Numbered from the stretch's first letter, positions 6,663-31,036 are shown. The stretch: 64,000 nt of DNA from Eledone cirrhosa (GCA_964016885.1 OZ024741.1:188046001-188110000); one strand, 5' to 3'. The notes: a model not told the origin generated them from the sequence alone. Program-made: numbers and translations.

Positions 6663-6697
6663 GTGGTCTTTCCCATCTTTTCCACTCTATTTTAAAC

Positions 6698-10117: not shown

Positions 10118-10387
10118 ACTAAAGGTGGAAAACTGGGAGAGGGCACTTGCCTTGGTGGTCAGGGTCATTGTGGCTTTTTACTGGGCTTTCTCCACAAATG
10201 TCCCTCCGAAGTCTCCCCCCTATTGGGGAATTTTTCATTGTTATTTTCATTGTTATTTTTGTTACATCCTCTGTTTTTGTTTTTTTTACACGCAGAAATG
10301 CCCATTTGTACCGTCCTGCATTGTCCTGCACTGTCCTTAATGTCTACTTTATGTAAACCCTTGTGGTTAATAAAGAAATCATTATTG

Positions 10388-10434: not shown

Positions 10435-10647
10435 GAATGCCATGGTTGACGGAGGCTCGGCTCTGTAAGGTATAGTAATTTTTAACCGTTAAAACAATTG
10501 TAAATTGTTTAAAACTTGAACCAAATTGTTGATAAAGACACCCTCCTCCTCGTGAGAGGGGTCTTTCTGTCCGTTATTTGGCCCTTCGGGGTTAAATAGC
10601 CAGTTATTGGGGTTTTGTACCCAAAATTTCATTTTAAACAAAAAAAC

Positions 10648-12747
10648 ATGGCTACCAAAAAAAAAAAATTTCATACGTCACTCCCACTCATTCCGTCTTC
10701 TTCTTCCTCAATCATCACTACAGGAGAGAGAAGATTGTCTCTCTCCCTCCCTTCTTTAAATGTGTCTCTCTCCCTACCTTCTCTTTCGCAAGCGACGAAA
10801 GAAAAGAAAAGTCTCGTGCAAAGCGTGCAAGGTTTCTCCACGACGACGACGACAGCGACGAAACAGGTGTGCGGGAAATACGAAAACCCAGTTCATTCGT
10901 CTGACGTCAGGAATAATAGCAGTAGCAGCCGTAATAACAACAGCAACAGTGACAATGAAAACAACAGTAGCAGCCGCAACAGCATCACCAGCAGCATAAA
11001 CAACAACACCATTAGCAGCAGCAACACCAACAACAACCACAGCAACAGCGGCGGAGGCAGTAGTCGTAGTACCTGCAGCAACAACAAAAGTACCAGCAGC
11101 TCTGACGACAACAACAACAGCAGAGAAAAACCAATCTCATTTGCAGGTATTGCGAAAAACCTGGAAACAATCCTCATAACAAATGAGGAATTAGAGGAAG
11201 CGAAGAAGATGGTGACAAAGAACGGACACCGAGCAATCTGCAAGGCAGCGAAAAATTTTTTCGAAACCCAAGAGCACTGTACGGTCACGTACCGTACAGT
11301 AAGTACAAAATCCCGTAGGGTGGAAAGAGCCACAGAGGCCCAAATACAAAAAGCCTTGGGGTCTGTGTGGCAGAGGAAAACGCACATCACCCGAGGCAAA
11401 AAATACGCCACCGTAGACGTACTTTTTGCCACACCCCAGGAGGCAAAGGCCCAATCAGTAGTGACCCTAAGGAGCGAGGAAATGGTGTTGGTGCCCTCCT
11501 ACTGCGGGCAAAAAATTGTGAGGGTCAAACTGACCCACGTCCCCCCCGGAATGACCCCTTCTTGGCTGGCCGCGTCTGTCCTCGTCGGAATCGAGGACAA
11601 AACAACTGTACTGCAAGTACAGAAAAAAGTAAGAGAAGATTGGGTCGGCTCCTCCATTGAGATGCTAATACAAACCAACCAGGAGTGCATCGAAGCTATC
11701 CCGGATGTGATAGACTTCGATAACGGCACTCAACTGCCCATAAGTGTTGAGGGCAAACGCCCGAAATGCTTTCGCTGTGGATCGAAGACTCACCTCAGGG
11801 CCTTCTGCAACGAGAAGACCCTGAGAAAGGAGAAAACCCCCCTCCTCCCGAATCCGGTTCCACGGCTACCAGCAACAGGACAAGCGGCAACCAGGAACGA
11901 TAGGTCCGTGGCACCCATACCCACTCCACGGAAATCAAAGACAGCAGCAGCAGTGGAAATATTAACAACAACAACAGCAATACCAAATGCAGCTGCAACA
12001 GAGACTCCAGTGCAAACATCACCAACAACAACAAGTGAAAGAGTGGAGCTGGTACCCCTCCCCGACCTTACAGAATCAGACATGGAGTGTGAGGTGGGAG
12101 AGGGATGGCAAAAGGTCTCAAGAAGGCACAAACGCAGAAGCAGCGCATCGTCGCCTTTGAAAAGGGAGGAAAGAAATGAGAAAAGGGTAAAGTCTACTGC
12201 AAAGAGACCCACAGCAGCAACACCACCAACACCATCACCACCCACACCAGCACCACCATCACCACCGGCGACAACCCCACCGCCAACAACACCTTCAACA
12301 CCACCACCACAAGCACCAACATCGCAAACACAACAACAAAACACACACACCCAGCAACAACGACAAGAAAATAGCAGAACCACACCCCACCCCCAGAAAA
12401 ACAAATGCACGGCAATAAACACACACAACAAGAAACTAATGACTTACATAATTGAACACACAGACATTTCACAACAGGACTACATAATACCAGCACCAAT
12501 CAAAACGCCAACTAACATAAGACTGCTAAAAATAGCACAGAAACAATACACAAACATTAAAACGAAATTCCCCAACGCAGTTGGTGATTTCAGGGACCTA
12601 GGAGGAACCATTAATCGAAGAGTATATTCAGACATTCTCTTAGAAGAGCCGACGACCAGCCGAAGGGACGATTCAACGGTCCCTTCACCAGACGATCAAG
12701 TGAAAAGGGATGTAAAAACCATCCCTCCTCTACCAAAAATACGGTAA
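10648..12747 (+). CDS. ORF1, copy 2
   Basis: Same protein as copy 1. Confidence 0.88.
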   Translation: MATKKKKFHTSLPLIPSSSSSIITTGERRLSLSLPSLNVSLSLPSLSQATKEKKSLVQSVQGFSTTTTTATKQVCGKYENPVHSSDVRNNSSSSRNNNSNSDNENNSSSRNSITSSINNNTISSSNTNNNHSNSGGGSSRSTCSNNKSTSSSDDNNNSREKPISFAGIAKNLETILITNEELEEAKKMVTKNGHRAICKAAKNFFETQEHCTVTYRTVSTKSRRVERATEAQIQKALGSVWQRKTHITRGKKYATVDVLFATPQEAKAQSVVTLRSEEMVLVPSYCGQKIVRVKLTHVPPGMTPSWLAASVLVGIEDKTTVLQVQKKVREDWVGSSIEMLIQTNQECIEAIPDVIDFDNGTQLPISVEGKRPKCFRCGSKTHLRAFCNEKTLRKEKTPLLPNPVPRLPATGQAATRNDRSVAPIPTPRKSKTAAAVEILTTTTAIPNAAATETPVQTSPTTTSERVELVPLPDLTESDMECEVGEGWQKVSRRHKRRSSASSPLKREERNEKRVKSTAKRPTAATPPTPSPPTPAPPSPPATTPPPTTPSTPPPQAPTSQTQQQNTHTQQQRQENSRTTPHPQKNKCTAINTHNKKLMTYIIEHTDISQQDYIIPAPIKTPTNIRLLKIAQKQYTNIKTKFPNAVGDFRDLGGTINRRVYSDILLEEPTTSRRDDSTVPSPDDQVKRDVKTIPPLPKIR

Positions 12748-12782
12748 GTGGTCTTTCCCATCTTTTCCACTCTATTTTAAAC

Positions 12783-15700
12783 ATGACCTCACTCAGAATA
12801 GGCAGCATAAATGCGCGTGGCTTGGGGTCGTCATGGAAGCAGGGTCACCTGCTCAACGACCTCAGGTCACTAAACATAGATGTAGTGGCCATCAGCGAGA
12901 CCAGAATCTCCGAAGCACGGGCCTTCGCACCGATCTTCGGCGGCTACGATGTGTACGCATCTCCCAGCCGTCCTGGATCGGGTGGAGGAGTTGCTGTGCT
13001 TTTTCGGAGAGGTTTGGATCTCGCCATACGGGCCATCTTCCTGGACCCAGAGGGTAAGCTGGTGGTGCTGGACGTGACCAGCGGAGACGGGCAAGCTTTC
13101 AGGCTAGTGGCCGTCTATGCCCCGACAGGAGCAGGGCGGCCTGATTTCTTCCGGCGTCTGGAGACCTTTCTTGGAACGTCGCGCTCTTTAGTGTTAGTGG
13201 GCGACTGGAACGGGATCTTAGATGCACGCTGGGACTGTGTGGGATTAGCGGATAGGGGTGGAGGGTGCAAGAGCCTCACCAACCTGCTCAGGCGTTTTGA
13301 ACTGTCTGACAGGTACCGATTGGATTTCCCGAATGTGCCAATGTGGACTTGGACAAACCGCATAGGGTCATCCAGATCATATCTAGATAGAGTATTTTGT
13401 AGGGAAATAGATAGGTCTAGCATAGGCTGTCCACAATTCAAGATAGTCAGCTACACGGACCACAAATTCGTGATCTGTGTGCTTGACTTAGATAGGCTTC
13501 ATAGACGAGGACCCGGCTACTGGAAGCTAAACGCGTCCTTACCAGCGCGCAAGGCCTACAGAGACCGGATTAGCGAACTAGTTAAGCGGGCGTTGACGGG
13601 GGCCATCGTCAACAACAAGTGGTGGTTTGCTCTGAAAAGAGCGATTAGAATAGAATCGATTAGGTTTAGTAAGGCTTTAGCAATAGAGAAAAATAGAGCA
13701 GAGGGAGAACTAGTTAGAAAATTAGACGAGGCGCTTAGCAAAGGCATTGCGACCGACGTGCTTGCGGCGAAATTGGCCCTTGACCAATTCTTCAATGCAA
13801 AGCACGAAGGCTGCGTTGTCAGAGCTAGGGTGCGTGCTCTCAGACACGAGGGGACGAAAGCCGTTCAATGGGCCCGAGTGGCGGAGGCGCGTCGTGGCAA
13901 CAAAGCCACGATCCGGTCTTTGGTGGACCACGACGGGCGCATGCTACTCGATCCCGGGCAAATGTGTGAAGCTTTTCAGCGACACTTCGCTCAGCTGTTC
14001 GGGGGCAGCGGGGGGCCGGGTAGAGGGATGGACTTTAGTGTCTACCTCGACGGACTGCCGCGGCTCTCGGCCACTGAGGCGAAGTGTTGCGAAAAGCCGA
14101 TAACAGCCGCTGAAGTAAGGGAGGCAATGACTGGCTGCACAAGGGGTAAATCGCCTGGTTTGGATGGTCTGCCCTATGAACTTTACGTACAGATGCCAGA
14201 CTTGTTCGGAGGCCTCTTGGCGGACGTCTACTGCAACTGGCAACAGAACGGGAGAATTCCCAGTTCTGTGAGCCGAGGAGCGGTGGCACTGCTGAGAAAG
14301 GATCCGAACAAGGGGGATAACATAGACAATTTCCGGCCCATAACTCTGCTAAACACAGAGTTTAAGATTTTGGCCAAGGTGCTAGCAAAGAGGTTGGCGC
14401 TTGTCGTTGGTGGTCTGGTGGGAGAGGCGCAGACATGCGCCATTCCCGACAGATCCATCCACGACAACCTCCACCTCATGCGATACATCGTAGAGAGGGT
14501 AGCTAGGGAACCTGGCACGGGTGGGTCCTTGATCAATTTAGATCAGTCGAAAGCTTTCGATAGGGTCGACCATCGTTACCTAGCGGCAGTCCTGAGGGCG
14601 GCTGGCTTTGGGCCCGTCTTCAGAGGCTGGATCGCTGCCATGCACAGCGACATCTGCTCTGTGGTGAGAGTGAACGGTCACCTGTCGGAACCGTTCAACA
14701 TCATGCGCTCGGTCCGCCAAGGATGTCCCCTCTCGTCCCTCTTGTACGTATTGACTCTCGAGCCATTACTGCACAAACTGGAGACGTTGAGGGGAGTCCC
14801 GCGCGAACTAGGATGCGGAAGATCCGTGTCAGCATATGCGGACGATGTCACCGTAGTGGTGTCGAACGCCAAACACATCGAGGCGATCGGCACTACACTA
14901 AGAGAATACGAAGCGGTGACAGGAGCAATGATCAACCAGGAAAAGTCAGTGGGCCTGCAGCTCGGCACCTGGAGAGGCAGGTCCATGCCGTCCAACAGCG
15001 TCGTCGGGCGCTGGACGGACGGACCGGTTAAATTGCTAGGGGTCTGGTTCGGTCCGGACCTCCAGACGGACAAAAACTGGGACGAGGTGACGAGCAGGGT
15101 GGCTTCTCTCACCCAGAAATGGGCGGAGAGGAAGCTATCCCTGAAAGGTCGAGCGGAGGTGGCTAACGCGTACATCGCGTCTGTCATCTGCTACCGCCTA
15201 ACCGTCGTACCTTGTCCTAAGCCTCGCCTGACTGCGCTGGAGCGTTTGCTCTTTCGCTTTTTGTGGAAGGGACGTGCTCCGATGGTCAGGCGGTCCATCT
15301 GTTGTCAACACCCGCTACGTGGAGGGCTGGGCATGCCGTGGCTGATGATGCGCAGGCACGCGCTCAGGCTACGACATCTCCACCTCTTCCTCGACGGTGA
15401 TCAGGTGTGGTCGCCGTTTGCTAGACGCGTTTTTCCCCAGCTCGTTTCCTTGACGGAGCTGCAGTCCTGGGTCAAGCGAAGACCGAGAGGGAGCGCCTGG
15501 AGACTGGAATGTCTTCAGGCGCTCACAGCCCTCGACCAATCGGGCAATGTGATCGGTGGAAACTCCACCTCGGCGTTCTATAGAGGATTAGTGGAGGGGA
15601 AGAGCGACGACGTACTTGGGGAAACTCTAGGCGTCGACGAAAATCAACTAGCCAATCTCTTCGGAAGAACCTTCGGGCCAGGGCCTATGGACAACTTCCA

Positions 15701-16202
15701 GAAATCTCTGGCCTGGCAGTGCTACCGAGGAGCCTTGCCAGTTCGGGATAAACTCTACAGGCATGGAGGTGCCGTCAGCCGGGCATGTCCGAGATGCGCG
15801 CAGGGCGACGAAACCGTCCTGCACGCACTCGTCCAGTGTCCGAAAATTGCTGACTTGTGGGTTTATGTCGAACACCTGCTGTCGCGTTTAGGACGGATCC
15901 AGCTATCATCTGAGTCTATCGTGAGGATTGCCCCGCCCTCCTCCTTTAGCCGGGAAGGGCAGGCAGTTTTTATCTGTCTGGTGGCCATGGCGAAAGAGAT
16001 AGTATGGTGGACACGTTTGAAAGGGCTGAAGACGAGCACTTACCTCTTCGGTGATGCTCTGATTGACTTTTTCAAATTTCATTTGAAAAGGAAAATCAGA
16101 GTAGAGAAGGAAGTGCTCTCTTCCCAGCATTTTGTTGAAAGATGGGTGAGAGAAGCAAGAATGGCCCGAGTGAATGGGCCGACTCTGAGTATATATCTGT
16201 AA
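12783..16202 (+). CDS. ORF2 (APE-RT-ZnF), copy 2
   Basis: Same protein as copy 1. Confidence 0.95.
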   Translation: MTSLRIGSINARGLGSSWKQGHLLNDLRSLNIDVVAISETRISEARAFAPIFGGYDVYASPSRPGSGGGVAVLFRRGLDLAIRAIFLDPEGKLVVLDVTSGDGQAFRLVAVYAPTGAGRPDFFRRLETFLGTSRSLVLVGDWNGILDARWDCVGLADRGGGCKSLTNLLRRFELSDRYRLDFPNVPMWTWTNRIGSSRSYLDRVFCREIDRSSIGCPQFKIVSYTDHKFVICVLDLDRLHRRGPGYWKLNASLPARKAYRDRISELVKRALTGAIVNNKWWFALKRAIRIESIRFSKALAIEKNRAEGELVRKLDEALSKGIATDVLAAKLALDQFFNAKHEGCVVRARVRALRHEGTKAVQWARVAEARRGNKATIRSLVDHDGRMLLDPGQMCEAFQRHFAQLFGGSGGPGRGMDFSVYLDGLPRLSATEAKCCEKPITAAEVREAMTGCTRGKSPGLDGLPYELYVQMPDLFGGLLADVYCNWQQNGRIPSSVSRGAVALLRKDPNKGDNIDNFRPITLLNTEFKILAKVLAKRLALVVGGLVGEAQTCAIPDRSIHDNLHLMRYIVERVAREPGTGGSLINLDQSKAFDRVDHRYLAAVLRAAGFGPVFRGWIAAMHSDICSVVRVNGHLSEPFNIMRSVRQGCPLSSLLYVLTLEPLLHKLETLRGVPRELGCGRSVSAYADDVTVVVSNAKHIEAIGTTLREYEAVTGAMINQEKSVGLQLGTWRGRSMPSNSVVGRWTDGPVKLLGVWFGPDLQTDKNWDEVTSRVASLTQKWAERKLSLKGRAEVANAYIASVICYRLTVVPCPKPRLTALERLLFRFLWKGRAPMVRRSICCQHPLRGGLGMPWLMMRRHALRLRHLHLFLDGDQVWSPFARRVFPQLVSLTELQSWVKRRPRGSAWRLECLQALTALDQSGNVIGGNSTSAFYRGLVEGKSDDVLGETLGVDENQLANLFGRTFGPGPMDNFQKSLAWQCYRGALPVRDKLYRHGGAVSRACPRCAQGDETVLHALVQCPKIADLWVYVEHLLSRLGRIQLSSESIVRIAPPSSFSREGQAVFICLVAMAKEIVWWTRLKGLKTSTYLFGDALIDFFKFHLKRKIRVEKEVLSSQHFVERWVREARMARVNGPTLSIYL

Positions 16203-16472
16203 ACTAAAGGTGGAAAACTGGGAGAGGGCACTTGCCTTGGTGGTCAGGGTCATTGTGGCTTTTTACTGGGCTTTCTCCACAAATGTCCCTCCGAAGTCTC
16301 CCCCCTATTGGGGAATTTTTCATTGTTATTTTCATTGTTATTTTTGTTACATCCTCTATTTTTGTTTTTTTTACACGCAGAAATGCCCATTTGTACCGTC
16401 CTGCATTGTCCTGCACTGTCCTTAATGTCTACTTTATGTAAACCCTTGTGGTTAATAAAGAAATCATTATTG

Positions 16473-16519
<47 letters not shown>

Positions 16520-16732
16520 GAATGCCATGGTTGACGGAGGCTCGGCTCTGTAAGGTATAGTAATTTTTAACCGTTAAAACAATTGTAAATTGTTTAAAAC
16601 TTGAACCAAATTGTTGATAAAGACACCCTCCTCCTCGTGAGAGGGGTCTTTCTGTCCGTTATTTGGCCCTTCGGGGTTAAATAGCCAGTTATTGGGGTTT
16701 TGTACCCAAAATTTCATTTTAAACAAAAAAAC

Positions 16733-18832
16733 ATGGCTACCAAAAAAAAAAAATTTCATACGTCACTCCCACTCATTCCGTCTTCTTCTTCCTCAATCAT
16801 CACTACAGGAGAGAGAAGATTGTCTCTCTCCCTCCCTTCTTTAAATGTGTCTCTCTCCCTACCTTCTCTTTCGCAAGCGACGAAAGAAAAGAAAAGTCTC
16901 GTGCAAAGCGTGCAAGGTTTCTCCACGACGACGACGACAGCGACGAAACAGGTGTGCGGGAAATACGAAAACCCAGTTCATTCGTCTGACGTCAGGAATA
17001 ATAGCAGTAGCAGCCGTAATAACAACAGCAACAGTGACAATGAAAACAACAGTAGCAGCCGCAACAGCATCACCAGCAGCATAAACAACAACACCATTAG
17101 CAGCAGCAACACCAACAACAACCACAGCAACAGCGGCGGAGGCAGTAGTCGTAGTACCTGCAGCAACAACAAAAGTACCAGCAGCTCTGACGACAACAAC
17201 AACAGCAGAGAAAAACCAATCTCATTTGCAGGTATTGCGAAAAACCTGGAAACAATCCTCATAACAAATGAGGAATTAGAGGAAGCGAAGAAGATGGTGA
17301 CAAAGAACGGACACCGAGCAATCTGCAAGGCAGCGAAAAATTTTTTCGAAACCCAAGAGCACTGTACGGTCACGTACCGTACAGTAAGTACAAAATCCCG
17401 TAGGGTGGAAAGAGCCACAGAGGCCCAAATACAAAAAGCCTTGGGGTCTGTGTGGCAGAGGAAAACGCACATCACCCGAGGCAAAAAATACGCCACCGTA
17501 GACGTACTTTTTGCCACACCCCAGGAGGCAAAGGCCCAATCAGTAGTGACCCTAAGGAGCGAGGAAATGGTGTTGGTGCCCTCCTACTGCGGGCAAAAAA
17601 TTGTGAGGGTCAAACTGACCCACGTCCCCCCCGGAATGACCCCTTCTTGGCTGGCCGCGTCTGTCCTCGTCGGAATCGAGGACAAAACAACTGTACTGCA
17701 AGTACAGAAAAAAGTAAGAGAAGATTGGGTCGGCTCCTCCATTGAGATGCTAATCCAAACCAACCAGGAGTGCATCGAAGCTATCCCGGATGTGATAGAC
17801 TTCGATAACGGCACTCAACTGCCCATAAGTGTTGAGGGCAAACGCCCGAAATGCTTTCGCTGTGGATCGAAGACTCACCTCAGGGCCTTCTGCAACGAGA
17901 AGACCCTGAGAAAGGAGAAAACCCCCCTCCTCCCGAATCCGGTTCCACGGCTACCAGCAACAGGACAAGCGGCAACCAGGAACGATAGGTCCGTGGCACC
18001 CATACCCACTCCACGGAAATCAAAGACAGCAGCAGCAGTGGAAATATTAACAACAACAACAGCAATACCAAATGCAGCTGCAACAGAGACTCCAGTGCAA
18101 ACATCACCAACAACAACAAGTGAAAGAGTGGAGCTGGTACCCCTCCCCGACCTTACAGAATCAGACATGGAGTGTGAGGTGGGAGAGGGATGGCAAAAGG
18201 TCTCAAGAAGGCACAAACGCAGAAGCAGCGCATCGTCGCCTTTGAAAAGGGAGGAAAGAAATGAGAAAAGGGTAAAGTCTACTGCAAAGAGACCCACAGC
18301 AGCAACACCACCAACACCATCACCACCCACACCAGCACCACCATCACCACCGGCGACAACCCCACCGCCAACAACACCTTCAACACCACCACCACAAGCA
18401 CCAACATCGCAAACACAACAACAAAACACACACACCCAGCAACAACGACAAGAAAATAGCAGAACCACACCCCACCCCCAGAAAAACAAATGCACGGCAA
18501 TAAACACACACAACAAGAAACTAATGACTTACATAATTGAACACACAGACATTTCACAACAGGACTACATAATACCAGCACCAATCAAAACGCCAACTAA
18601 CATAAGACTGCTAAAAATAGCACAGAAACAATACACAAACATTAAAACGAAATTTCCCAACGCAGTTGGTGATTTCAGGGACCTAGGAGGAACCATTAAT
18701 CGAAGAGTATATTCAGACATTCTCTTAGAAGAGCCGACGACCAGCCGAAGGGACGATTCAACGGTCCCTTCACCAGACGATCAAGTGAAAAGGGATGTAA
18801 AAACCATCCCTCCTCTACCAAAAATACGGTAA
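16733..18832 (+). CDS. ORF1, copy 3
   Basis: Same protein; two synonymous changes seen. Confidence 0.88.
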   Translation: MATKKKKFHTSLPLIPSSSSSIITTGERRLSLSLPSLNVSLSLPSLSQATKEKKSLVQSVQGFSTTTTTATKQVCGKYENPVHSSDVRNNSSSSRNNNSNSDNENNSSSRNSITSSINNNTISSSNTNNNHSNSGGGSSRSTCSNNKSTSSSDDNNNSREKPISFAGIAKNLETILITNEELEEAKKMVTKNGHRAICKAAKNFFETQEHCTVTYRTVSTKSRRVERATEAQIQKALGSVWQRKTHITRGKKYATVDVLFATPQEAKAQSVVTLRSEEMVLVPSYCGQKIVRVKLTHVPPGMTPSWLAASVLVGIEDKTTVLQVQKKVREDWVGSSIEMLIQTNQECIEAIPDVIDFDNGTQLPISVEGKRPKCFRCGSKTHLRAFCNEKTLRKEKTPLLPNPVPRLPATGQAATRNDRSVAPIPTPRKSKTAAAVEILTTTTAIPNAAATETPVQTSPTTTSERVELVPLPDLTESDMECEVGEGWQKVSRRHKRRSSASSPLKREERNEKRVKSTAKRPTAATPPTPSPPTPAPPSPPATTPPPTTPSTPPPQAPTSQTQQQNTHTQQQRQENSRTTPHPQKNKCTAINTHNKKLMTYIIEHTDISQQDYIIPAPIKTPTNIRLLKIAQKQYTNIKTKFPNAVGDFRDLGGTINRRVYSDILLEEPTTSRRDDSTVPSPDDQVKRDVKTIPPLPKIR

Positions 18833-18867
18833 GTGGTCTTTCCCATCTTTTCCACTCTATTTTAAAC

Positions 18868-21800
18868 ATGACCTCACTCAGAATAGGCAGCATAAATGCG
18901 CGTGGCTTGGGGTCGTCATGGAAGCAGGGTCACCTGCTCAACGACCTCAGGTCACTAAACATAGATGTAGTGGCCATCAGCGAGACCAGAATCTCCGAAG
19001 CACGGGCCTTCGCACCGATCTTCGGCGGCTACGATGTGTACGCATCTCCCAGCCGTCCTGGATCCGGTGGAGGAGTTGCTGTACTTTTTCGGAGAGGTTT
19101 GGATCTCGCCATACGGGCCATCTTCCTGGACCCAGAGGGTAAGCTGGTGGTGCTGGACGTGACCAGCGGAGACGGGCAAGCTTTCAGGCTAGTGGCCGTC
19201 TATGCCCCGACAGGAGCAGGGCGGCCTGATTTCTTCCGGCGTCTGGAGACCTTTCTTGGAACGTCCCGCTCTTTAGTGTTAGTGGGCGACTGGAACGGGA
19301 TCTTAGATGCACGCTGGGACTGTGTGGGATTAGCGGATAGGGGTGGAGGGTGCAAGAGCCTCACCAACCTGCTCAGGCGTTTTGAACTGTCTGACAGGTA
19401 CCGATTGGATTTCCCGAATGTGCCAATGTGGACTTGGACAAACCGCATAGGGTCATCCAGATCATATCTAGATAGAGTATTTTGTAGGGAAATAGATAGG
19501 TCTAGCATAGGCTGTCCACAATTCAAGATAGTCAGCTACACGGACCACAAATTCGTGATCTGTGTGCTTGACTTAGATAGGCTTCATAGACGAGGACCCG
19601 GCTACTGGAAGCTAAACGCGTCCTTACCAGCGCGCAAGGCCTACAGAGACCGGATTAGCGAACTAGTTAAGCGGGCGTTGACGGGGGCCATCGTCAACAA
19701 CAAGTGGTGGTTTGCTCTGAAAAGAGCGATTAGAATAGAATCGATTAGGTTTAGTAAGGCTTTAGCAATAGAGAAAAATAGAGCAGAGGGAGAACTAGTT
19801 AGAAAATTAGACGAGGCGCTTAGCAAAGGCATTGCGACCGACGTGCTTGCGGCGAAATTGGCCCTTGACCAATTCTTCAATGCAAAGCACGAAGGCTGCG
19901 TTGTCAGAGCTAGGGTGCGTGCTCTCAGACACGAGGGGACGAAAGCCGTTCAATGGGCCCGAGTGGCGGAGGCGCGTCGTGGCAACAAAGCCACGATCCG
20001 GTCTTTGGTGGACCACGACGGGCGCATGCTACTCGATCCCGGGCAAATGTGTGAAGCTTTTCAGCGACACTTCGCTCAGCTGTTCGGGGGCAGCGGGGGG
20101 CCGGGTAGAGGGATGGACTTTAGTGTCTACCTCGACGGGCTGCCGCGGCTCTCGGCCACTGAGGCGAGGTGTTGCGAAAAGCCGATAACAGCCGCTGAAG
20201 TACGGGAGGCAATGACTGGCTGCACAAGGGGTAAATCGCCTGGTTTGGATGGTCTGCCCTATGAACTTTACGTACAGATGCCAGACTTGTTCGGAGGCCT
20301 CTTGGCGGACGTCTACTGCAACTGGCAACAGAACGGGAGAATTCCCAGTTCTGTGAGCCGAGGAGCGGTGGCACTGCTGAGAAAGGATCCGAACAAGGGG
20401 GATAACATAGACAATTTCCGGCCCATAACTCTGCTAAACACAGAGTTTAAGATTTTGGCCAAGGTGCTAGCAAAGAGGTTGGCGCTTGTCGTTGGTGGTC
20501 TGGTGGGAGAGGCGCAGACATGCGCCATTCCCGACAGATCCATCCACGACAACCTCCACCTCATGCGATACATCGTAGAGAGGGTAGCTAGGGAACCTGG
20601 CACGGGTGGGTCCTTGATCAATTTAGATCAGTCGAAAGCTTTCGATAGGGTCGACCATCGTTACCTAGCGGCAGTCCTGAGGGCGGCTGGCTTTGGGCCC
20701 GTCTTCAGAGGCTGGATCGCTGCCATGCACAGCGACATCTGCTCTGTGGTGAGAGTGAACGGTCACCTGTCGGAACCGTTCAACATCATGCGCTCGGTCC
20801 GCCAAGGATGTCCCCTCTCGTCCCTCTTGTACGTATTGACTCTCGAGCCATTACTGCACAAACTGGAGACGTTGAGGGGAGTCCCGCGCGAACTAGGATG
20901 CGGAAGATCCGTGTCAGCATATGCGGACGATGTCACCGTAGTGGTGTCGAACGCCAAACACATCGAGGCGATCGGCACTACACTAAGAGAATACGAAGCG
21001 GTGACAGGAGCAATGATCAACCAGGAAAAGTCAGTGGGCCTGCAGCTCGGCACCTGGAGAGGCAGGTCCATGCCGTCCAACAGCGTCGTCGGGCGCTGGA
21101 CGGACGGACCGGTTAAATTGCTAGGGGTCTGGTTCGGTCCGGACCTCCAGACGGACAAAAACTGGGACGAGGTGACGAGCAGGGTGGCTTCTCTCACCCA
21201 GAAATGGGCGGAGAGGAAGCTATCCCTGAAAGGTCGAGCGGAGGTGGCTAACGCGTACATCGCGTCTGTCATCTGCTACCGCCTAACCGTCGTACCTTGT
21301 CCTAAGCCTCGCCTGACTGCGCTGGAGCGTTTGCTCTTTCGCTTTTTGTGGAAGGGACGTGCTCCGATGGTCAGGCGGTCCATCTGTTGTCAACACCCGC
21401 TACGTGGAGGGCTGGGCATGCCGTGGCTGATGATGCGCAGGCACGCGCTCAGGCTACGACATCTCCACCTCTTCCTCGACGGTGATCAGGTGTGGTCGCC
21501 GTTTGCTAGACGCGTTTTTCCCCAGCTCGTTTCCTTGACGGAGCTGCAGTCCTGGGTCAAGCGAAGACCGAGAGGGAGCGCCTGGAGACTGGAATGTCTT
21601 CAGGCGCTCACAGCCCTCGACCAATCGGGCAATGTGATCGGTGGAAACTCCACCTCGGCGTTCTATAGAGGATTAGTGGAGGGGAAGAGCGACGACGTAC
21701 TTGGGGAAACTCTAGGCGTCGACGAAAATCAACTAGCCAATCTCTTCGGAAGAACTTTCGGGCCGGGGCCTATGGACAACTTCCAGAAATCTCTGGCCTG

Positions 21801-22287
21801 GCAGTGCTACCGAGGAGCCTTGCCAGTTCGGGATAAACTCTACAGGCATGGAGGTGCCGTCAGCCGGGCATGTCCGAGATGCGCGCAGGGCGACGAAACT
21901 GTCCTGCACGCACTCGTCCAGTGTCCGAAAATTGCTGACTTGTGGGTTTATGTCGAACACCTGCTGTCGCGTTTAGGACGGATCCAGCTATCATCTGAGT
22001 CCATCGTGAGGATTGCCCCGCCCTCCTCCTTTAGCCGGGAAGGGCAGGCAGTTTTTATCTGTCTGGTGGCCATGGCGAAAGAGATAGTATGGTGGACACG
22101 TTTGAAAGGGCTGAAGACGAGCACTTACCTCTTCGGTGATGCTCTGATTGACTTTTTCAAATTTCATTTGAAAAGGAAAATCAGAGTAGAGAGGGAAGTG
22201 CTCTCTTCCCAGCATTTTGTTGAAAGATGGGTGAGAGAAGCAAGAATGGCCCGAGTGAATGGGCCGACTCTGAGTATATATCTGTAA
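18868..22287 (+). CDS. ORF2 (APE-RT-ZnF), copy 3
   Basis: Intact; two K->R changes (TEARCC, RVEREV). Confidence 0.95.
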   Translation: MTSLRIGSINARGLGSSWKQGHLLNDLRSLNIDVVAISETRISEARAFAPIFGGYDVYASPSRPGSGGGVAVLFRRGLDLAIRAIFLDPEGKLVVLDVTSGDGQAFRLVAVYAPTGAGRPDFFRRLETFLGTSRSLVLVGDWNGILDARWDCVGLADRGGGCKSLTNLLRRFELSDRYRLDFPNVPMWTWTNRIGSSRSYLDRVFCREIDRSSIGCPQFKIVSYTDHKFVICVLDLDRLHRRGPGYWKLNASLPARKAYRDRISELVKRALTGAIVNNKWWFALKRAIRIESIRFSKALAIEKNRAEGELVRKLDEALSKGIATDVLAAKLALDQFFNAKHEGCVVRARVRALRHEGTKAVQWARVAEARRGNKATIRSLVDHDGRMLLDPGQMCEAFQRHFAQLFGGSGGPGRGMDFSVYLDGLPRLSATEARCCEKPITAAEVREAMTGCTRGKSPGLDGLPYELYVQMPDLFGGLLADVYCNWQQNGRIPSSVSRGAVALLRKDPNKGDNIDNFRPITLLNTEFKILAKVLAKRLALVVGGLVGEAQTCAIPDRSIHDNLHLMRYIVERVAREPGTGGSLINLDQSKAFDRVDHRYLAAVLRAAGFGPVFRGWIAAMHSDICSVVRVNGHLSEPFNIMRSVRQGCPLSSLLYVLTLEPLLHKLETLRGVPRELGCGRSVSAYADDVTVVVSNAKHIEAIGTTLREYEAVTGAMINQEKSVGLQLGTWRGRSMPSNSVVGRWTDGPVKLLGVWFGPDLQTDKNWDEVTSRVASLTQKWAERKLSLKGRAEVANAYIASVICYRLTVVPCPKPRLTALERLLFRFLWKGRAPMVRRSICCQHPLRGGLGMPWLMMRRHALRLRHLHLFLDGDQVWSPFARRVFPQLVSLTELQSWVKRRPRGSAWRLECLQALTALDQSGNVIGGNSTSAFYRGLVEGKSDDVLGETLGVDENQLANLFGRTFGPGPMDNFQKSLAWQCYRGALPVRDKLYRHGGAVSRACPRCAQGDETVLHALVQCPKIADLWVYVEHLLSRLGRIQLSSESIVRIAPPSSFSREGQAVFICLVAMAKEIVWWTRLKGLKTSTYLFGDALIDFFKFHLKRKIRVEREVLSSQHFVERWVREARMARVNGPTLSIYL

Positions 22288-22556
22288 ACTAAAGGTGGAA
22301 AACTGGGAGAGGGCACTTGCCTTGGTGGTCAGGGTCATTGTGGCTTTTTACTGGGCTTTCTCCACAAATGTCCCTCCGAAGTCTCCCCCCTATTGGGGAA
22401 TTTTTCATTGTTATTTTCATTGTTATTTTTGTTACATCCTCTGTTTTTGTTTTTTTACACGCAGAAATGCCCATTTGTACCGTCCTGCATTGTCCTGCAC
22501 TGTCCTTAATGTCTACTTTATGTAAACCCTTGTGGTTAATAAAGAAATCATTATTG

Positions 22557-22603
<47 letters not shown>

Positions 22604-22816
22604 GAATGCCATGGTTGACGGAGGCTCGGCTCTGTAAGGTATAGTAATTTTTAACCGTTAAAACAATTGTAAATTGTTTAAAACTTGAACCAAATTGTTG
22701 ATAAAGACACCCTCCTCCTCGTGAGAGGGGTCTTTCTGTCCGTTATTTGGCCCTTCGGGGTTAAATAGCCAGTTATTGGGGTTTTGTACCCAAAATTTCA
22801 TTTTAAACAAAAAAAC

Positions 22817-24916
22817 ATGGCTACCAAAAAAAAAAAATTTCATACGTCACTCCCACTCATTCCGTCTTCTTCTTCCTCAATCATCACTACAGGAGAGAGA
22901 AGATTGTCTCTCTCCCTCCCTTCTTTAAATGTGTCTCTCTCCCTACCTTCTCTTTCGCAAGCGACGAAAGAAAAGAAAAGTCTCGTGCAAAGCGTGCAAG
23001 GTTTCTCCACGACGACGACGACAGCGACGAAACAGGTGTGCGGGAAATACGAAAACCCAGTTCATTCGTCTGACGTCAGGAATAATAGCAGTAGCAGCCG
23101 TAATAACAACAGCAACAGTGACAATGAAAACAACAGTAGCAGCCGCAACAGCATCACCAGCAGCATAAACAACAACACCATTAGCAGCAGCAACACCAAC
23201 AACAACCACAGCAACAGCGGCGGAGGCAGTAGTCGTAGTACCTGCAGCAACAACAAAAGTACCAGCAGCTCTGACGACAACAACAACAGCAGAGAAAAAC
23301 CAATCTCATTTGCAGGTATTGCGAAAAACCTGGAAACAATCCTCATAACAAATGAGGAATTAGAGGAAGCGAAGAAGATGGTGACAAAGAACGGACACCG
23401 AGCAATCTGCAAGGCAGCGAAAAATTTTTTCGAAACCCAAGAGCACTGTACGGTCACGTACCGTACAGTAAGTACAAAATCCCGTAGGGTGGAAAGAGCC
23501 ACAGAGGCCCAAATACAAAAAGCCTTGGGGTCTGTGTGGCAGAGGAAAACGCACATCACCCGAGGCAAAAAATACGCCACCGTAGACGTACTTTTTGCCA
23601 CACCCCAGGAGGCAAAGGCCCAATCAGTAGTGACCCTAAGGAGCGAGGAAATGGTGTTGGTGCCCTCCTACTGCGGGCAAAAAATTGTGAGGGTCAAACT
23701 GACCCACGTCCCCCCCGGAATGACCCCTTCTTGGCTGGCCGCGTCTGTCCTCGTCGGAATCGAGGACAAAACAACTGTACTGCAAGTACAGAAAAAAGTA
23801 AGAGAAGATTGGGTCGGCTCCTCCATTGAGATGCTAATACAAACCAACCAGGAGTGCATCGAAGCTATCCCGGATGTGATAGACTTCGATAACGGCACTC
23901 AACTGCCCATAAGTGTTGAGGGCAAACGCCCGAAATGCTTTCGCTGTGGATCGAAGACTCACCTCAGGGCCTTCTGCAACGAGAAGACCCTGAGAAAGGA
24001 GAAAACCCCCCTCCTCCCGAATCCGGTTCCACGGCTACCAGCAACAGGACAAGCGGCAACCAGGAACGATAGGTCCGTGGCACCCATACCCACTCCACGG
24101 AAATCAAAGACAGCAGCAGCAGTGGAAATATTAACAACAACAACAGCAATACCAAATGCAGCTGCAACAGAGACTCCAGTGCAAACATCACCAACAACAA
24201 CAAGTGAAAGAGTGGAGCTGGTACCCCTCCCCGACCTTACAGAATCAGACATGGAGTGTGAGGTGGGAGAGGGATGGCAAAAGGTCTCAAGAAGGCACAA
24301 ACGCAGAAGCAGCGCATCGTCGCCTTTGAAAAGGGAGGAAAGAAATGAGAAAAGGGTAAAGTCTACTGCAAAGAGACCCACAGCAGCAACACCACCAACA
24401 CCATCACCACCCACACCAGCACCACCATCACCACCGGCGACAACCCCACCGCCAACAACACCTTCAACACCACCACCACAAGCACCAACATCGCAAACAC
24501 AACAACAAAACACACACACCCAGCAACAACGACAAGAAAATAGCAGAACCACACCCCACCCCCAGAAAAACAAATGCACGGCAATAAACACACACAACAA
24601 GAAACTAATGACTTACATAATTGAACACACAGACATTTCACAACAGGACTACATAATACCAGCACCAATCAAAACGCCAACTAACATAAGACTGCTAAAA
24701 ATAGCACAGAAACAATACACAAACATTAAAACGAAATTCCCCAACGCAGTTGGTGATTTCAGGGACCTAGGAGGAACCATTAATCGAAGAGTATATTCAG
24801 ACATTCTCTTAGAAGAGCCGACGACCAGCCGAAGGGACGATTCAACGGTCCCTTCACCAGACGATCAAGTGAAAAGGGATGTAAAAACCATCCCTCCTCT
24901 ACCAAAAATACGGTAA
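22817..24916 (+). CDS. ORF1, copy 4
   Basis: Same protein as copy 1. Confidence 0.88.
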   Translation: MATKKKKFHTSLPLIPSSSSSIITTGERRLSLSLPSLNVSLSLPSLSQATKEKKSLVQSVQGFSTTTTTATKQVCGKYENPVHSSDVRNNSSSSRNNNSNSDNENNSSSRNSITSSINNNTISSSNTNNNHSNSGGGSSRSTCSNNKSTSSSDDNNNSREKPISFAGIAKNLETILITNEELEEAKKMVTKNGHRAICKAAKNFFETQEHCTVTYRTVSTKSRRVERATEAQIQKALGSVWQRKTHITRGKKYATVDVLFATPQEAKAQSVVTLRSEEMVLVPSYCGQKIVRVKLTHVPPGMTPSWLAASVLVGIEDKTTVLQVQKKVREDWVGSSIEMLIQTNQECIEAIPDVIDFDNGTQLPISVEGKRPKCFRCGSKTHLRAFCNEKTLRKEKTPLLPNPVPRLPATGQAATRNDRSVAPIPTPRKSKTAAAVEILTTTTAIPNAAATETPVQTSPTTTSERVELVPLPDLTESDMECEVGEGWQKVSRRHKRRSSASSPLKREERNEKRVKSTAKRPTAATPPTPSPPTPAPPSPPATTPPPTTPSTPPPQAPTSQTQQQNTHTQQQRQENSRTTPHPQKNKCTAINTHNKKLMTYIIEHTDISQQDYIIPAPIKTPTNIRLLKIAQKQYTNIKTKFPNAVGDFRDLGGTINRRVYSDILLEEPTTSRRDDSTVPSPDDQVKRDVKTIPPLPKIR

Positions 24917-24951
24917 GTGGTCTTTCCCATCTTTTCCACTCTATTTTAAAC

Positions 24952-27900
24952 ATGACCTCACTCAGAATAGGCAGCATAAATGCGCGTGGCTTGGGGTCGT
25001 CATGGAAGCAGGGTCACCTGCTCAACGACCTCAGGTCACTAAACATAGATGTAGTGGCCATCAGCGAGACCAGAATCTCCGAAGCACGGGCCTTCGCACC
25101 GATCTTCGGCGGCTACGATGTGTACGCATCTCCCAGCCGTCCTGGATCGGGTGGAGGAGTTGCTGTGCTTTTTCGGAGAGGTTTGGATCTCGCCATACGG
25201 GCCATCTTCCTGGACCCAGAGGGTAAGCTGGTGGTGCTGGACGTGACCAGCGGAGACGGGCAAGCTTTCAGGCTAGTGGCCGTCTATGCCCCGACAGGAG
25301 CAGGGCGGCCTGATTTCTTCCGGCGTCTGGAGACCTTTCTTGGAACGTCGCGCTCTTTAGTGTTAGTGGGCGACTGGAACGGGATCTTAGATGCACGCTG
25401 GGACTGTGTGGGATTAGCGGATAGGGGTGGAGGGTGCAAGAGCCTCACCAACCTGCTCAGGCGTTTTGAACTGTCTGACAGGTACCGATTGGATTTCCCG
25501 AATGTGCCAATGTGGACTTGGACAAACCGCATAGGGTCATCCAGATCATATCTAGATAGAGTATTTTGTAGGGAAATAGATAGGTCTAGCATAGGCTGTC
25601 CACAATTCAAGATAGTCAGCTACACGGACCACAAATTCGTGATCTGTGTGCTTGACTTAGATAGGCTTCATAGACGAGGACCCGGCTACTGGAAGCTAAA
25701 CGCGTCCTTACCAGCGCGCAAGGCCTACAGAGACCGGATTAGCGAACTAGTTAAGCGGGCGTTGACGGGGGCCATCGTCAACAACAAGTGGTGGTTTGCT
25801 CTGAAAAGAGCGATTAGAATAGAATCGATTAGGTTTAGTAAGGCTTTAGCAATAGAGAAAAATAGAGCAGAGGGAGAACTAGTTAGAAAATTAGACGAGG
25901 CGCTTAGCAAAGGCATTGCGACCGACGTGCTTGCGGCGAAATTGGCCCTTGACCAATTCTTCAATGCAAAGCACGAAGGCTGCGTTGTCAGAGCTAGGGT
26001 GCGTGCTCTCAGACACGAGGGGACGAAAGCCGTTCAATGGGCCCGAGTGGCGGAGGCGCGTCGTGGCAACAAAGCCACGATCCGGTCTTTGGTGGACCAC
26101 GACGGGCGCATGCTACTCGATCCCGGGCAAATGTGTGAAGCTTTTCAGCGACACTTCGCTCAGCTGTTCGGGGGCAGCGGGGGGCCGGGTAGAGGGATGG
26201 ACTTTAGTGTCTACCTCGACGGACTGCCGCGGCTCTCGGCCACTGAGGCGAAGTGTTGCGAAAAGCCGATAACAGCCGCTGAAGTAAGGGAGGCAATGAC
26301 TGGCTGCACAAGGGGTAAATCGCCTGGTTTGGATGGTCTGCCCTATGAACTTTACGTACAGATGCCAGACTTGTTCGGAGGCCTCTTGGCGGACGTCTAC
26401 TGCAACTGGCAACAGAACGGGAGAATTCCCAGTTCTGTGAGCCGAGGAGCGGTGGCACTGCTGAGAAAGGATCCGAACAAGGGGGATAACATAGACAATT
26501 TCCGGCCCATAACTCTGCTAAACACAGAGTTTAAGATTTTGGCCAAGGTGCTAGCAAAGAGGTTGGCGCTTGTCGTTGGTGGTCTGGTGGGAGAGGCGCA
26601 GACATGCGCCATTCCCGACAGATCCATCCACGACAACCTCCACCTCATGCGATACATCGTAGAGAGGGTAGCTAGGGAACCTGGCACGGGTGGGTCCTTG
26701 ATCAATTTAGATCAGTCGAAAGCTTTCGATAGGGTCGACCATCGTTACCTAGCGGCAGTCCTGAGGGCGGCTGGCTTTGGGCCCGTCTTCAGAGGCTGGA
26801 TCGCTGCCATGCACAGCGACATCTGCTCTGTGGTGAGAGTGAACGGTCACCTGTCGGAACCGTTCAACATCATGCGCTCGGTCCGCCAAGGATGTCCCCT
26901 CTCGTCCCTCTTGTACGTATTGACTCTCGAGCCATTACTGCACAAACTGGAGACGTTGAGGGGAGTCCCGCGCGAACTAGGATGCGGAAGATCCGTGTCA
27001 GCATATGCGGACGATGTCACCGTAGTGGTGTCGAACGCCAAACACATCGAGGCGATCGGCACTACACTAAGAGAATACGAAGCGGTGACAGGAGCAATGA
27101 TCAACCAGGAAAAGTCAGTGGGCCTGCAGCTCGGCACCTGGAGAGGCAGGTCCATGCCGTCCAACAGCGTCGTCGGGCGCTGGACGGACGGACCGGTTAA
27201 ATTGCTAGGGGTCTGGTTCGGTCCGGACCTCCAGACGGACAAAAACTGGGACGAGGTGACGAGCAGGGTGGCTTCTCTCACCCAGAAATGGGCGGAGAGG
27301 AAGCTATCCCTGAAAGGTCGAGCGGAGGTGGCTAACGCGTACATCGCGTCTGTCATCTGCTACCGCCTAACCGTCGTACCTTGTCCTAAGCCTCGCCTGA
27401 CTGCGCTGGAGCGTTTGCTCTTTCGCTTTTTGTGGAAGGGACGTGCTCCGATGGTCAGGCGGTCCATCTGTTGTCAACACCCGCTACGTGGAGGGCTGGG
27501 CATGCCGTGGCTGATGATGCGCAGGCACGCGCTCAGGCTACGACATCTCCACCTCTTCCTCGACGGTGATCAGGTGTGGTCGCCGTTTGCTAGACGCGTT
27601 TTTCCCCAGCTCGTTTCCTTGACGGAGCTGCAGTCCTGGGTCAAGCGAAGACCGAGAGGGAGCGCCTGGAGACTGGAATGTCTTCAGGCGCTCACAGCCC
27701 TCGACCAATCGGGCAATGTGATCGGTGGAAACTCCACCTCGGCGTTCTATAGAGGATTAGTGGAGGGGAAGAGCGACGACGTACTTGGGGAAACTCTAGG
27801 CGTCGACGAAAATCAACTAGCCAATCTCTTCGGAAGAACCTTCGGGCCAGGGCCTATGGACAACTTCCAGAAATCTCTGGCCTGGCAGTGCTACCGAGGA

Positions 27901-28371
27901 GCCTTGCCAGTTCGGGATAAACTCTACAGGCATGGAGGTGCCGTCAGCCGGGCATGTCCGAGATGCGCGCAGGGCGACGAAACCGTCCTGCACGCACTCG
28001 TCCAGTGTCCGAAAATTGCTGACTTGTGGGTTTATGTCGAACACCTGCTGTCGCGTTTAGGACGGATCCAGCTATCATCTGAGTCTATCGTGAGGATTGC
28101 CCCGCCCTCCTCCTTTAGCCGGGAAGGGCAGGCAGTTTTTATCTGTCTGGTGGCCATGGCGAAAGAGATAGTATGGTGGACACGTTTGAAAGGGCTGAAG
28201 ACGAGCACTTACCTCTTCGGTGATGCTCTGATTGACTTTTTCAAATTTCATTTGAAAAGGAAAATCAGAGTAGAGAAGGAAGTGCTCTCTTCCCAGCATT
28301 TTGTTGAAAGATGGGTGAGAGAAGCAAGAATGGCCCGAGTGAATGGGCCGACTCTGAGTATATATCTGTAA
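24952..28371 (+). CDS. ORF2 (APE-RT-ZnF), copy 4
   Basis: Same protein as copy 1. Confidence 0.95.
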   Translation: MTSLRIGSINARGLGSSWKQGHLLNDLRSLNIDVVAISETRISEARAFAPIFGGYDVYASPSRPGSGGGVAVLFRRGLDLAIRAIFLDPEGKLVVLDVTSGDGQAFRLVAVYAPTGAGRPDFFRRLETFLGTSRSLVLVGDWNGILDARWDCVGLADRGGGCKSLTNLLRRFELSDRYRLDFPNVPMWTWTNRIGSSRSYLDRVFCREIDRSSIGCPQFKIVSYTDHKFVICVLDLDRLHRRGPGYWKLNASLPARKAYRDRISELVKRALTGAIVNNKWWFALKRAIRIESIRFSKALAIEKNRAEGELVRKLDEALSKGIATDVLAAKLALDQFFNAKHEGCVVRARVRALRHEGTKAVQWARVAEARRGNKATIRSLVDHDGRMLLDPGQMCEAFQRHFAQLFGGSGGPGRGMDFSVYLDGLPRLSATEAKCCEKPITAAEVREAMTGCTRGKSPGLDGLPYELYVQMPDLFGGLLADVYCNWQQNGRIPSSVSRGAVALLRKDPNKGDNIDNFRPITLLNTEFKILAKVLAKRLALVVGGLVGEAQTCAIPDRSIHDNLHLMRYIVERVAREPGTGGSLINLDQSKAFDRVDHRYLAAVLRAAGFGPVFRGWIAAMHSDICSVVRVNGHLSEPFNIMRSVRQGCPLSSLLYVLTLEPLLHKLETLRGVPRELGCGRSVSAYADDVTVVVSNAKHIEAIGTTLREYEAVTGAMINQEKSVGLQLGTWRGRSMPSNSVVGRWTDGPVKLLGVWFGPDLQTDKNWDEVTSRVASLTQKWAERKLSLKGRAEVANAYIASVICYRLTVVPCPKPRLTALERLLFRFLWKGRAPMVRRSICCQHPLRGGLGMPWLMMRRHALRLRHLHLFLDGDQVWSPFARRVFPQLVSLTELQSWVKRRPRGSAWRLECLQALTALDQSGNVIGGNSTSAFYRGLVEGKSDDVLGETLGVDENQLANLFGRTFGPGPMDNFQKSLAWQCYRGALPVRDKLYRHGGAVSRACPRCAQGDETVLHALVQCPKIADLWVYVEHLLSRLGRIQLSSESIVRIAPPSSFSREGQAVFICLVAMAKEIVWWTRLKGLKTSTYLFGDALIDFFKFHLKRKIRVEKEVLSSQHFVERWVREARMARVNGPTLSIYL

Positions 28372-28641
28372 ACTAAAGGTGGAAAACTGGGAGAGGGCAC
28401 TTGCCTTGGTGGTCAGGGTCATTGTGGCTTTTTACTGGGCTTTCTCCACAAATGTCCCTCCGAAGTCTCCCCCCTATTGGGGAATTTTTCATTGTTATTT
28501 TCATTGTTATTTTTGTTACATCCTCTATTTTTGTTTTTTTTACACGCAGAAATGCCCATTTGTACCGTCCTGCATTGTCCTGCACTGTCCTTAATGTCTA
28601 CTTTATGTAAACCCTTGTGGTTAATAAAGAAATCATTATTG

Positions 28642-28688: not shown

Positions 28689-28901
28689 GAATGCCATGGT
28701 TGACGGAGGCTCGGCTCTGTAAGGTATAGTAATTTTTAACCGTTAAAACAATTGTAAATTGTTTAAAACTTGAACCAAATTGTTGATAAAGACACCCTCC
28801 TCCTCGTGAGAGGGGTCTTTCTGTCCGTTATTTGGCCCTTCGGGGTTAAATAGCCAGTTATTGGGGTTTTGTACCCAAAATTTCATTTTAAACAAAAAAA
28901 C

Positions 28902-31001: not shown

Positions 31002-31036
31002 GTGGTCTTTCCCATCTTTTCCACTCTATTTTAAAC

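What the first reader, a model, noticed from the sequence alone, without database searches (positions are those of the whole stretch)
16520..22549. Middle copy is a distinct variant with almost only synonymous changes
By eye, copy 3 differs from the majority at 17755, 18655, 19065, 19083, 19266, 20139, 20203, 21756, 21765, 21900 and 22002 (all synonymous), at 20168 and 22193 (both K->R), and by a 1-bp 3'UTR deletion. Neutral post-duplication mutation would be mostly non-synonymous and spread over all copies. The pattern implies copy 3 came from a different source element under purifying selection, favouring independent retrotransposition into the array (or gene conversion). It also argues against a pure assembly artefact.
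Basis: partly seen in the sequence, partly recalled or inferred. Interest (0 to 1): 0.7.

Follow-up and report, generated by a model that had tools for sequence, protein, structure and literature searches.

The report
Sister-allele copy inside LINE array
Five intact copies of a jumping gene (a LINE retrotransposon) sit head to tail, and the middle one carries the sequence of a closely related sister element, likely copied in from that sister's RNA and finished on a neighbouring copy; the near-absence of protein-changing differences is the normal mark of an active LINE family.

Summary
Confirmed. Five full-length L1/Tx1-type LINEs (6.03 kb, two intact ORFs) lie in tandem. Copy 3 differs from copies 2 and 4 at 15 sites (11 synonymous, 2 K/R, 2 in the 3'UTR; dN/dS 0.06-0.08, P 1e-4 or less). 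Contigs of public runs carry the copy-3 letter at 6 of 15 sites, so these are real family alleles. There the four 'majority' copies are the odd ones; at 5 sites copy 3 is. Two sister source lineages are thus compared, and the same synonymous bias runs through the family (19 of 27 listed coding variants). All four spacers are one identical 55-bp copy of the left flank, no copy is 5'-truncated, and copy 3 matches its neighbours for the first 1235 bp, then differs up to 99 bp from its 3' end. This fits a 3'-anchored chimera (sister cDNA finished on the neighbour; 0.4) better than a plain independent insertion (0.15). DNA-level conversion (0.25) and an assembly or haplotype mosaic (0.2) remain open, because no read spanning the junctions was seen. 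Closest known: the Drosophila R1 tandem array.

The parts
16520..22548 (+). Copy 3: full-length two-ORF non-LTR retrotransposon (L1/Tx1 group), sister-lineage body
16520..17754 (+). 5' 1235 bp of copy 3, identical to the other four copies, including letters 16684 G and 17094 C that are absent or very rare in the four runs; likely neighbour-derived
17755..22449 (+). Tract holding all 15 copy-3 differences; last one 99 bp from the element's 3' end
16733..18832 (+). ORF1, 699 aa from first ATG; CCHC-type knuckle seen in the sequence; no Pfam family above cut-off; features resemble mollusc CCHC proteins and ZCCHC3-like RNA-binding proteins (lead only)
18868..22287 (+). ORF2, 1139 aa from first ATG: APE endonuclease, reverse transcriptase (YADD), zf-RVT zinc finger; aligns to human LINE-1 ORF2p over residues 5-854
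22288..22548 (+). 3'UTR ending in an AATAAA signal a few bases before the spacer; no significant fold (z -0.1)
16465..16519 (+). 55-bp spacer before copy 3: C, two ATT, two GTT, 14 ATT; identical in all four junctions
22549..22603 (+). 55-bp spacer after copy 3, identical
4295..4349 (+). Left flank of the array, the same 55 bp as the spacers, continuous with an upstream GTT-interrupted ATT microsatellite
4350..10379 (+). Copy 1 (private synonymous T at 9818; shares 3'UTR G at 10273 with copy 3)
10435..16464 (+). Copy 2 (identical to copy 4)
22604..28633 (+). Copy 4 (identical to copy 2)
28689..34718 (+). Copy 5 (shares synonymous G at 33934 with copy 3); likely the founder because it keeps the only different 3' junction
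34719..34767 (+). Right junction: C, 13 ATT, ATC, two ATT; lacks the GTT pair of the spacers

Best explanation
Copy 3 is an intact L1/Tx1-type LINE whose 3' 4.7-5.4 kb carry the alleles of a sister source element, and it likely arose when that sister's RNA was reverse-transcribed at the ATT spacer and the incomplete cDNA annealed to the neighbouring array copy, which would supply the 5' end and an exact copy of the 55-bp spacer. Shown: the array, the 15 differences, their synonymous bias, identical spacers equal to the left flank, identity of the first 1235 bp, and 6 of 15 copy-3 letters in public contigs. From established knowledge: LINE lineages diverge under purifying selection because only working proteins copy their own RNA (cis-preference), so two source lineages differ mostly at synonymous sites. 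Inferred: the RNA route, the annealing step, and whether it added a unit or overwrote one.
For: Purifying selection between lineages: dN/dS 0.06-0.08; 4 of 5 coding changes on the majority branch and 5 of 5 on the copy-3 branch are synonymous; 19 of 27 coding variants that one search showed and classified are synonymous (P 3e-5 or less); this regime is reported for most retrotransposons (PMC7070016, passages). Polarity: no difference in the first 1235 bp where 3.9 are expected (P 0.02), differences up to 99 bp from the 3' end, and the three minor differences of copies 1 and 5 all in the last 13% (P 0.002, post hoc). Copy 3 keeps 16684 G and 17094 C, which contigs of X4 and X5 lack and X1 shows at 0 of 36,795 and 73 of 107,554 summed depth. 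The spacer starts where the element's normal 3' junction (TCATTATT) matches the flank; an old relative in the window also ends in AATAAAGAAA followed by ATC repeats. A growing L1 cDNA pairing with nearby homologous DNA and duplicating it is described for human L1 (10.1101/2024.08.27.596794, passage).
Against: Copy 3 also shares two uncommon letters with its neighbours inside the supposed sister tract (18154, 22266), so the donor is a close sister and could have had an identical 5' end by chance (P 0.02-0.03). The overall 3' skew of the 15 sites is not significant (KS p 0.053). A DNA donor gives the same sequence. No full-length donor locus was seen and no molecule linking copy-3 letters to array junctions was seen. 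The templated insertions in the passage read were mostly under 250 bp, not 1.2 kb. 4 of 15 sites could not be polarised (65 rows were not shown) and 3 of the 5 'copy-3-derived' sites lie within 31 letters of a contig end. Target preference for ATT was not measured across copies.
Confidence: 0.4

Rival explanations
1. The array grew by unequal exchange of a spacer+element unit, and the body of the middle unit was later overwritten by DNA-templated gene conversion (or double crossover) from a dispersed or allelic sister copy.
For: Identical 14-repeat spacers and no 5' truncation fit DNA copying of one unit. Sites 9595/10273 show all four combinations among copies 1, 2, 3, 5, and the copy-1 and copy-5 patches take only the G of a close pair, as patchy GC-biased repair would (n=2). 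Conversion that replaces one retroelement by a younger one is described for SINEs (PMC7980453, passage). A second near-identical tandem array (467 bp x 5.9) lies 10 kb away.
Against: Needs a tract of 4.7 kb or more that ends within 99 bp of the 3' end; does not predict the 3' bias of all foreign letters. Site 9595 is a CpG in its G form, so the four-combination pattern may be recurrent mutation.
Confidence: 0.25
2. Assembly mosaic: the copy-3 sequence is real but belongs to the homologous chromosome or another locus and was placed or polished into the middle unit, the one farthest (12 kb) from unique flank.
For: The odd copy is the least anchored one; junction-spanning evidence is missing (spacers skipped, no piece spans the stretch); X1 shows a contig with a 5-base deletion in the left flank, so a second allele may exist; copy-1 T at 9818 is in none of the four runs.
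Against: The 15 sites fall in 4-5 clusters more than 300-500 bp apart; independent short-read polishing would put all in one copy with P 0.002-0.008. Copy 3 is not the family majority: it keeps four letters that the runs mostly lack and has letters absent from long X4/X5 contigs. All ten ORFs are intact. Even under this reading the sister lineage and its synonymous bias are real.
Confidence: 0.2
3. Plain independent insertion: a full-length sister element inserted by ordinary target-primed reverse transcription with a 55-bp target duplication, as in double-insertion dimers, followed or preceded by unequal exchange.
For: Spacer equals the left flank, the hallmark of double insertion (PMC5932611, passages). 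Four distinct haplotypes among five copies, and both coding differences among the majority-type copies are synonymous (P 0.06-0.10).
Against: The founder's right junction allows a duplication of at most 13 ATT, not the 55-bp spacer; an insertion into the middle must reproduce the spacer exactly and be untruncated; rearranging a dimer into this order needs crossovers that avoid the 77% of the unit between the first and last diagnostic site; the 5' 1235 bp show no sister letters (P 0.02).
Confidence: 0.15

Closest known systems
Drosophila melanogaster R1 tandem array and double-insertion TE dimers (McGurk and Barbash 2018, PMC5932611; passages read)
   Same: Head-to-tail full-length non-LTR elements separated by an identical stretch of target-site DNA (33 nt in R1, 55 nt here).
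   Different: Target is an interrupted ATT microsatellite, not rDNA; five copies, not a megabase array; L1/Tx1-type proteins; one internal unit from a sister lineage; the far junction does not repeat the spacer.
Tx1-clade microsatellite-targeting elements Kibi and Koshi (Kojima 2015, PMC4494074; passages read); L1-Tx1 families recently active in Octopus vulgaris (PMC13282606; part 1 of 3 and term search read)
   Same: Two ORFs, APE endonuclease + RT + zinc finger, insertion in a microsatellite; closest named homologue is an Argonauta hians protein at 58%.
   Different: ATT/ATC rather than TC or TTC repeats; target preference and clade position not tested on a tree; no match to a named family shown.
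Templated / chimeric L1 insertions by cDNA annealing to nearby homologous DNA (10.1101/2024.08.27.596794, passage read; Gilbert et al. 2005 recalled, not held)
   Same: 3'-anchored new sequence joined to neighbouring DNA with duplication of the DNA in between.
   Different: There mostly short non-L1 templates in tumours; here a proposed 0.6-1.2 kb element 5' end plus spacer, giving a complete unit in an assembled genome.
Purifying selection among retrotransposon copies through cis-preference (Zhang et al. 2020, PMC7070016; passages read)
   Same: dN/dS far below 1 between copies of one family within a genome.
   Different: Seen here between adjacent units of one array, which is what exposes the mixed origin.

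Membership tests
L1 group of non-LTR retrotransposons (L1/Tx1) | ORF2 with N-terminal APE endonuclease, RT and C-terminal cysteine-rich zinc finger | tested here: met
   Pfam PF03372 (3e-14), PF00078 (1e-28), PF13966 (8e-8), all above cut-off; best solved relative human LINE-1 ORF2p, E 3e-52, against 1e-21 for R2
L1 group of non-LTR retrotransposons (L1/Tx1) | Separate ORF1 upstream, no LTRs, simple-repeat or poly(A) 3' end | tested here: met
   699-aa ORF1, 35 nt before ORF2; no terminal repeats in self-comparison; 3' end runs into ATT repeats
Tx1 clade | RT groups with Tx1 references in a phylogeny | not tested
   No named Tx1 reference set was returned; best named full-length hit is a Ciona pol-like protein at 27%
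Tx1 clade | ORF1 with RRM-like region and CCHC knuckle (feature recalled) | tested here: inconclusive
   Knuckle visible in the sequence; Atlas hits to zf-CCHC and ZCCHC3-like clusters at 0.87-0.91 with recognition below threshold; no Pfam match above cut-off
Tx1 clade | Target-sequence preference across many insertions | not testable with these tools
   No genome held; only this locus (ATT) and one old relative (ATC) seen; repeats skipped
Double-insertion TE array (R1 type) | Junction holds a duplicate of the local target site | tested here: met
   4 of 4 spacers equal window 4295-4349
Double-insertion TE array (R1 type) | The same duplication also closes the far end of the array | tested here: not met
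   Right junction lacks the GTT pair and has 13 ATT; two events of different register are needed
cDNA-templated chimeric LINE | Foreign tract anchored at the 3' end and stopping before the 5' end | tested here: inconclusive
   Tract runs 17755-22449; empty 5' 1235 bp P 0.02; KS p 0.053; donor not seen
Assembly or haplotype-switch artefact | Alleles absent from reads, or never linked to neighbouring units on one molecule | tested here: inconclusive
   6 of 15 alleles present in contigs; linkage not testable with contigs

The most novel reading that the evidence does not exclude
A microsatellite-targeting LINE builds its own satellite by retrotransposition: each new unit is primed at the ATT spacer, copies RNA of whichever active source is at hand, and is completed on the neighbouring unit, so arrays of full-length, intact, 3'-mosaic elements with exactly repeated spacers grow without unequal crossing-over and rescue 5'-truncated cDNAs into complete elements.
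Probability: 0.2. Interest if true: 0.65.

Novelty: new variant of a known kind. Interest (0 to 1): 0.35.

Why it matters
Tandem TE arrays are usually read as one dimer amplified by unequal exchange. A unit from another active source in the middle of an array, with array-type 5' end and spacers, would show sequence flowing between dispersed sources and arrays and creating new full-length recombinant LINEs. If the RNA route holds, it gives a second way from transposon to satellite that long-read genomes can test directly. If it is a mosaic, it is a caution for TE arrays in assemblies. The synonymous bias alone is expected and not news.

Tried and rejected
No whole genome is held, so other genomic copies and the donor could not be aligned. 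Run search: no RNA holder listed; 20 of 24 rows hold part of the stretch, under many organism codes; only 4 were laid, and horizontal transfer, close kinship or contamination were not told apart. Junction test failed: spacers were skipped as repeats. Residual depth of array-type letters in X1 (45 and 73 against about 6 on flank contigs) would fit a low multi-copy state but summed contig depth is no copy number; not used. X4 lies close to the array's subfamily and lacks flank cover, but its kind is not on record; no claim on expression. Exact 3'-end motif: 0 matches in metagenome contigs; ORF2: no match in viral contigs; profile scan gave 80 loci of only 22-34% identity, not examined further. 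3'UTR fold not better than shuffles. Pfam MBD, LEF-3 and DUF hits are below cut-off and rejected. Rejected: de novo neutral mutation after duplication (P 1e-4 or less); sequencing error (alleles in other runs); host domestication of the array (not needed; the bias is family-wide); short-read polishing as sole cause (clusters too far apart; copy 3 is not the majority sequence). Literature: searches and a term search of PMC13282606 showed no report of a cephalopod LINE tandem array (listings only; most subscription papers are not searched; supplements not read); one search found 0 papers; some searches gave little of use. Earlier scan notes by place and sequence were empty.

Full report
Setting. 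Self-comparison shows a 30.4-kb head-to-tail array of five units of 6085 bp (copy 3: 6084) at 99.8-99.95% identity, 4294-34764. Each unit has two open frames. In copy 3, ORF1 runs 16733-18832 (699 aa) and ORF2 18868-22287 (1139 aa) from their first ATG. ORF2 has APE endonuclease, RT and zf-RVT domains above Pfam cut-offs, and its best solved relative is human LINE-1 ORF2p (E 3e-52). It is an L1/Tx1-type LINE; Tx1 proper was not tested on a tree. The closest named homologue is an Argonauta hians fragment at 58% and Atlas neighbours of ORF1 are mostly molluscan, so the host is likely an octopod (inference). No genome is held.

Observation. 16 of 6085 columns vary. Copy 1 shares the 22443 letter and has one private synonymous T (9818); copy 5 shares the 21765 letter. 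Of 13 coding differences 11 are synonymous against 24-31% expected (P 7e-6 to 1e-4; dN/dS 0.057-0.081). The two K/R positions vary freely among the homologues aligned.

Are the letters real? 24 runs were listed and four were laid, all as contigs, on copy 1 with its left flank (40 rows shown, 65 hidden). X1 has single-depth contigs on the flank (three with no difference, one with a 5-base gap), so it may be the source and is not independent; X4 is another sample of that organism; X5 and X6 are two other organisms. At 6 of 15 sites the copy-3 letter is seen in the runs: 17755, 20203, 21756 and 22193 as the main letter in all four, 19266 in X1, X4, X5 (a minority of summed depth in X6), and the deletion in X1, X4, X5. 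At 5 sites a long contig holds the majority-copy letter instead: 18655 (X4 record 10), 19065 (X5 record 19, by its count of G>C changes), and 20139, 21765, 21900 (X4 records 13 and 16, each within 31 letters of a contig end; 21765 may be polymorphic there). Four sites (19083, 20168, 22002, 22443) are unresolved. The copy-1 T at 9818 was seen in no run, but contigs drop rare variants. So copy 3 is neither noise nor the family consensus: the majority type and the copy-3 type are sister lineages, each with its own changes (4 of 5 and 5 of 5 coding changes synonymous). All five copies share four letters that the runs mostly lack (16684, 17094 T/S, 18154, 22266). Of 27 coding variants shown and classified, 19 are synonymous (P 3e-5 or less). 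The bias is therefore a property of the family, as reported for most retrotransposons and explained by cis-preference (PMC7070016, passages).

Junctions. The four spacers are the same 55 bases (C, two ATT, two GTT, 14 ATT) and equal the left flank 4295-4349; the right junction has 13 ATT and no GTT pair. No copy is 5'-truncated. A 14-repeat microsatellite would not stay fixed for the time that 0.6-0.8% synonymous divergence takes (inference from general mutation rates), so the array is much younger than the split of the two lineages: copy-3 letters were brought in, not evolved in place. An older, 5'-truncated relative at 38150-39467 (minus strand, 72-76% identity) ends in the same AATAAAGAAA followed by ATC repeats, so joining to ATT/ATC repeats looks like the family's normal 3' junction (n=2). 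One search skipped the spacers, so the junctions are not confirmed by reads.

Polarity. Copy 3 has no difference in its first 1235 bp where 3.9 are expected at the density of the rest (P 0.02), keeps there two letters that are nearly absent from the runs, and differs up to 99 bp from the 3' end; the three minor differences of copies 1 and 5 lie in the last 13% (P 0.002, post hoc). The overall skew is borderline (KS p 0.053). Against a chimera: two shared uncommon letters lie inside the tract, so the donor is a close sister whose 5' end could match by chance.

Mechanism. I favour (0.4) target-primed reverse transcription of a sister RNA at the spacer, with the unfinished cDNA annealing to the adjacent copy and copying its 5' end and the spacer. 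This gives, in one event, a full-length unit, a foreign 3' body, an array-type 5' end and an exact spacer. A comparable annealing step is described for human L1 cDNA, mostly with short templates (10.1101/2024.08.27.596794, passage); chimeras with resident L1s are recalled from Gilbert et al. 2005, which is not held. Rivals: DNA-templated conversion after unequal exchange (0.25); assembly or haplotype mosaic (0.2; the middle copy is least anchored, but short-read polishing would scatter the 4-5 clusters, P 0.002-0.008); plain full-length insertion with a 55-bp duplication (0.15; crossovers would have to avoid 77% of the unit).

Comparison. The layout matches the R1 array and double-insertion dimers of Drosophila, where units are separated by identical target duplications (PMC5932611, passages), except that the far junction differs and one unit is foreign. 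Microsatellite targeting is known for Tx1-clade Kibi and Koshi (PMC4494074, passages), and young L1-Tx1 families are listed for Octopus vulgaris (PMC13282606, part 1 of 3). Listings showed no cephalopod LINE array; this is a limited library. One earlier scan note (e1-7632271) describes a LINE dimer with a target-derived spacer in another genome; unchecked.

Verdict. Real observation, ordinary cause for the synonymous bias, open and testable question on how a sister sequence entered the middle of a young array. New variant of a known kind; interest 0.35; the RNA-built-array reading has probability 0.2 and would deserve 0.65.

Noticed in passing
window 44357-47090: Second near-perfect tandem array, 467 bp x 5.9 at 99.8% (two single-copy differences), directly preceded by an inverted copy of about 410 bp of the unit (43963-44372) and bounded by AT repeats.
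   Followed up: partly
window 49339-54453: 690-bp inverted repeats (97%) flank minus-strand ORFs 50706-52409 (RT, Pfam E 1e-6, just under cut-off) and 53025-53771; looks like a Penelope-like element (label recalled, not tested).
   Followed up: partly
window 38150-39467 (minus strand): Old 5'-truncated relative of the array element (72-76% DNA identity) with the same 3' terminus followed by ATC repeats.
   Followed up: yes
window 58852-59697: Fragment of another RT (Pfam E 8e-13) interrupted by a CATA microsatellite.
   Followed up: no
runs X5, X6 and others: The element is held nearly full length at about 99% identity by runs of other organism codes; 14 rows hold over a fifth of the words. 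Close kinship, horizontal transfer or contamination not told apart.
   Followed up: partly
window 4639, 4691, 5321, 5762, 5773, 6335, 6654: X1's main letters, X5 and X6 agree on another subfamily, while X4 agrees with the array at these sites: the array belongs to a distinct subfamily that dominates X4.
   Followed up: partly
window 2672-3310, 37474-37647, 56295-56625: Copies of a very abundant short repeat (SINE-like; very high depth in X1, X4, X6), one part amplified as a 33-bp minisatellite.
   Followed up: no
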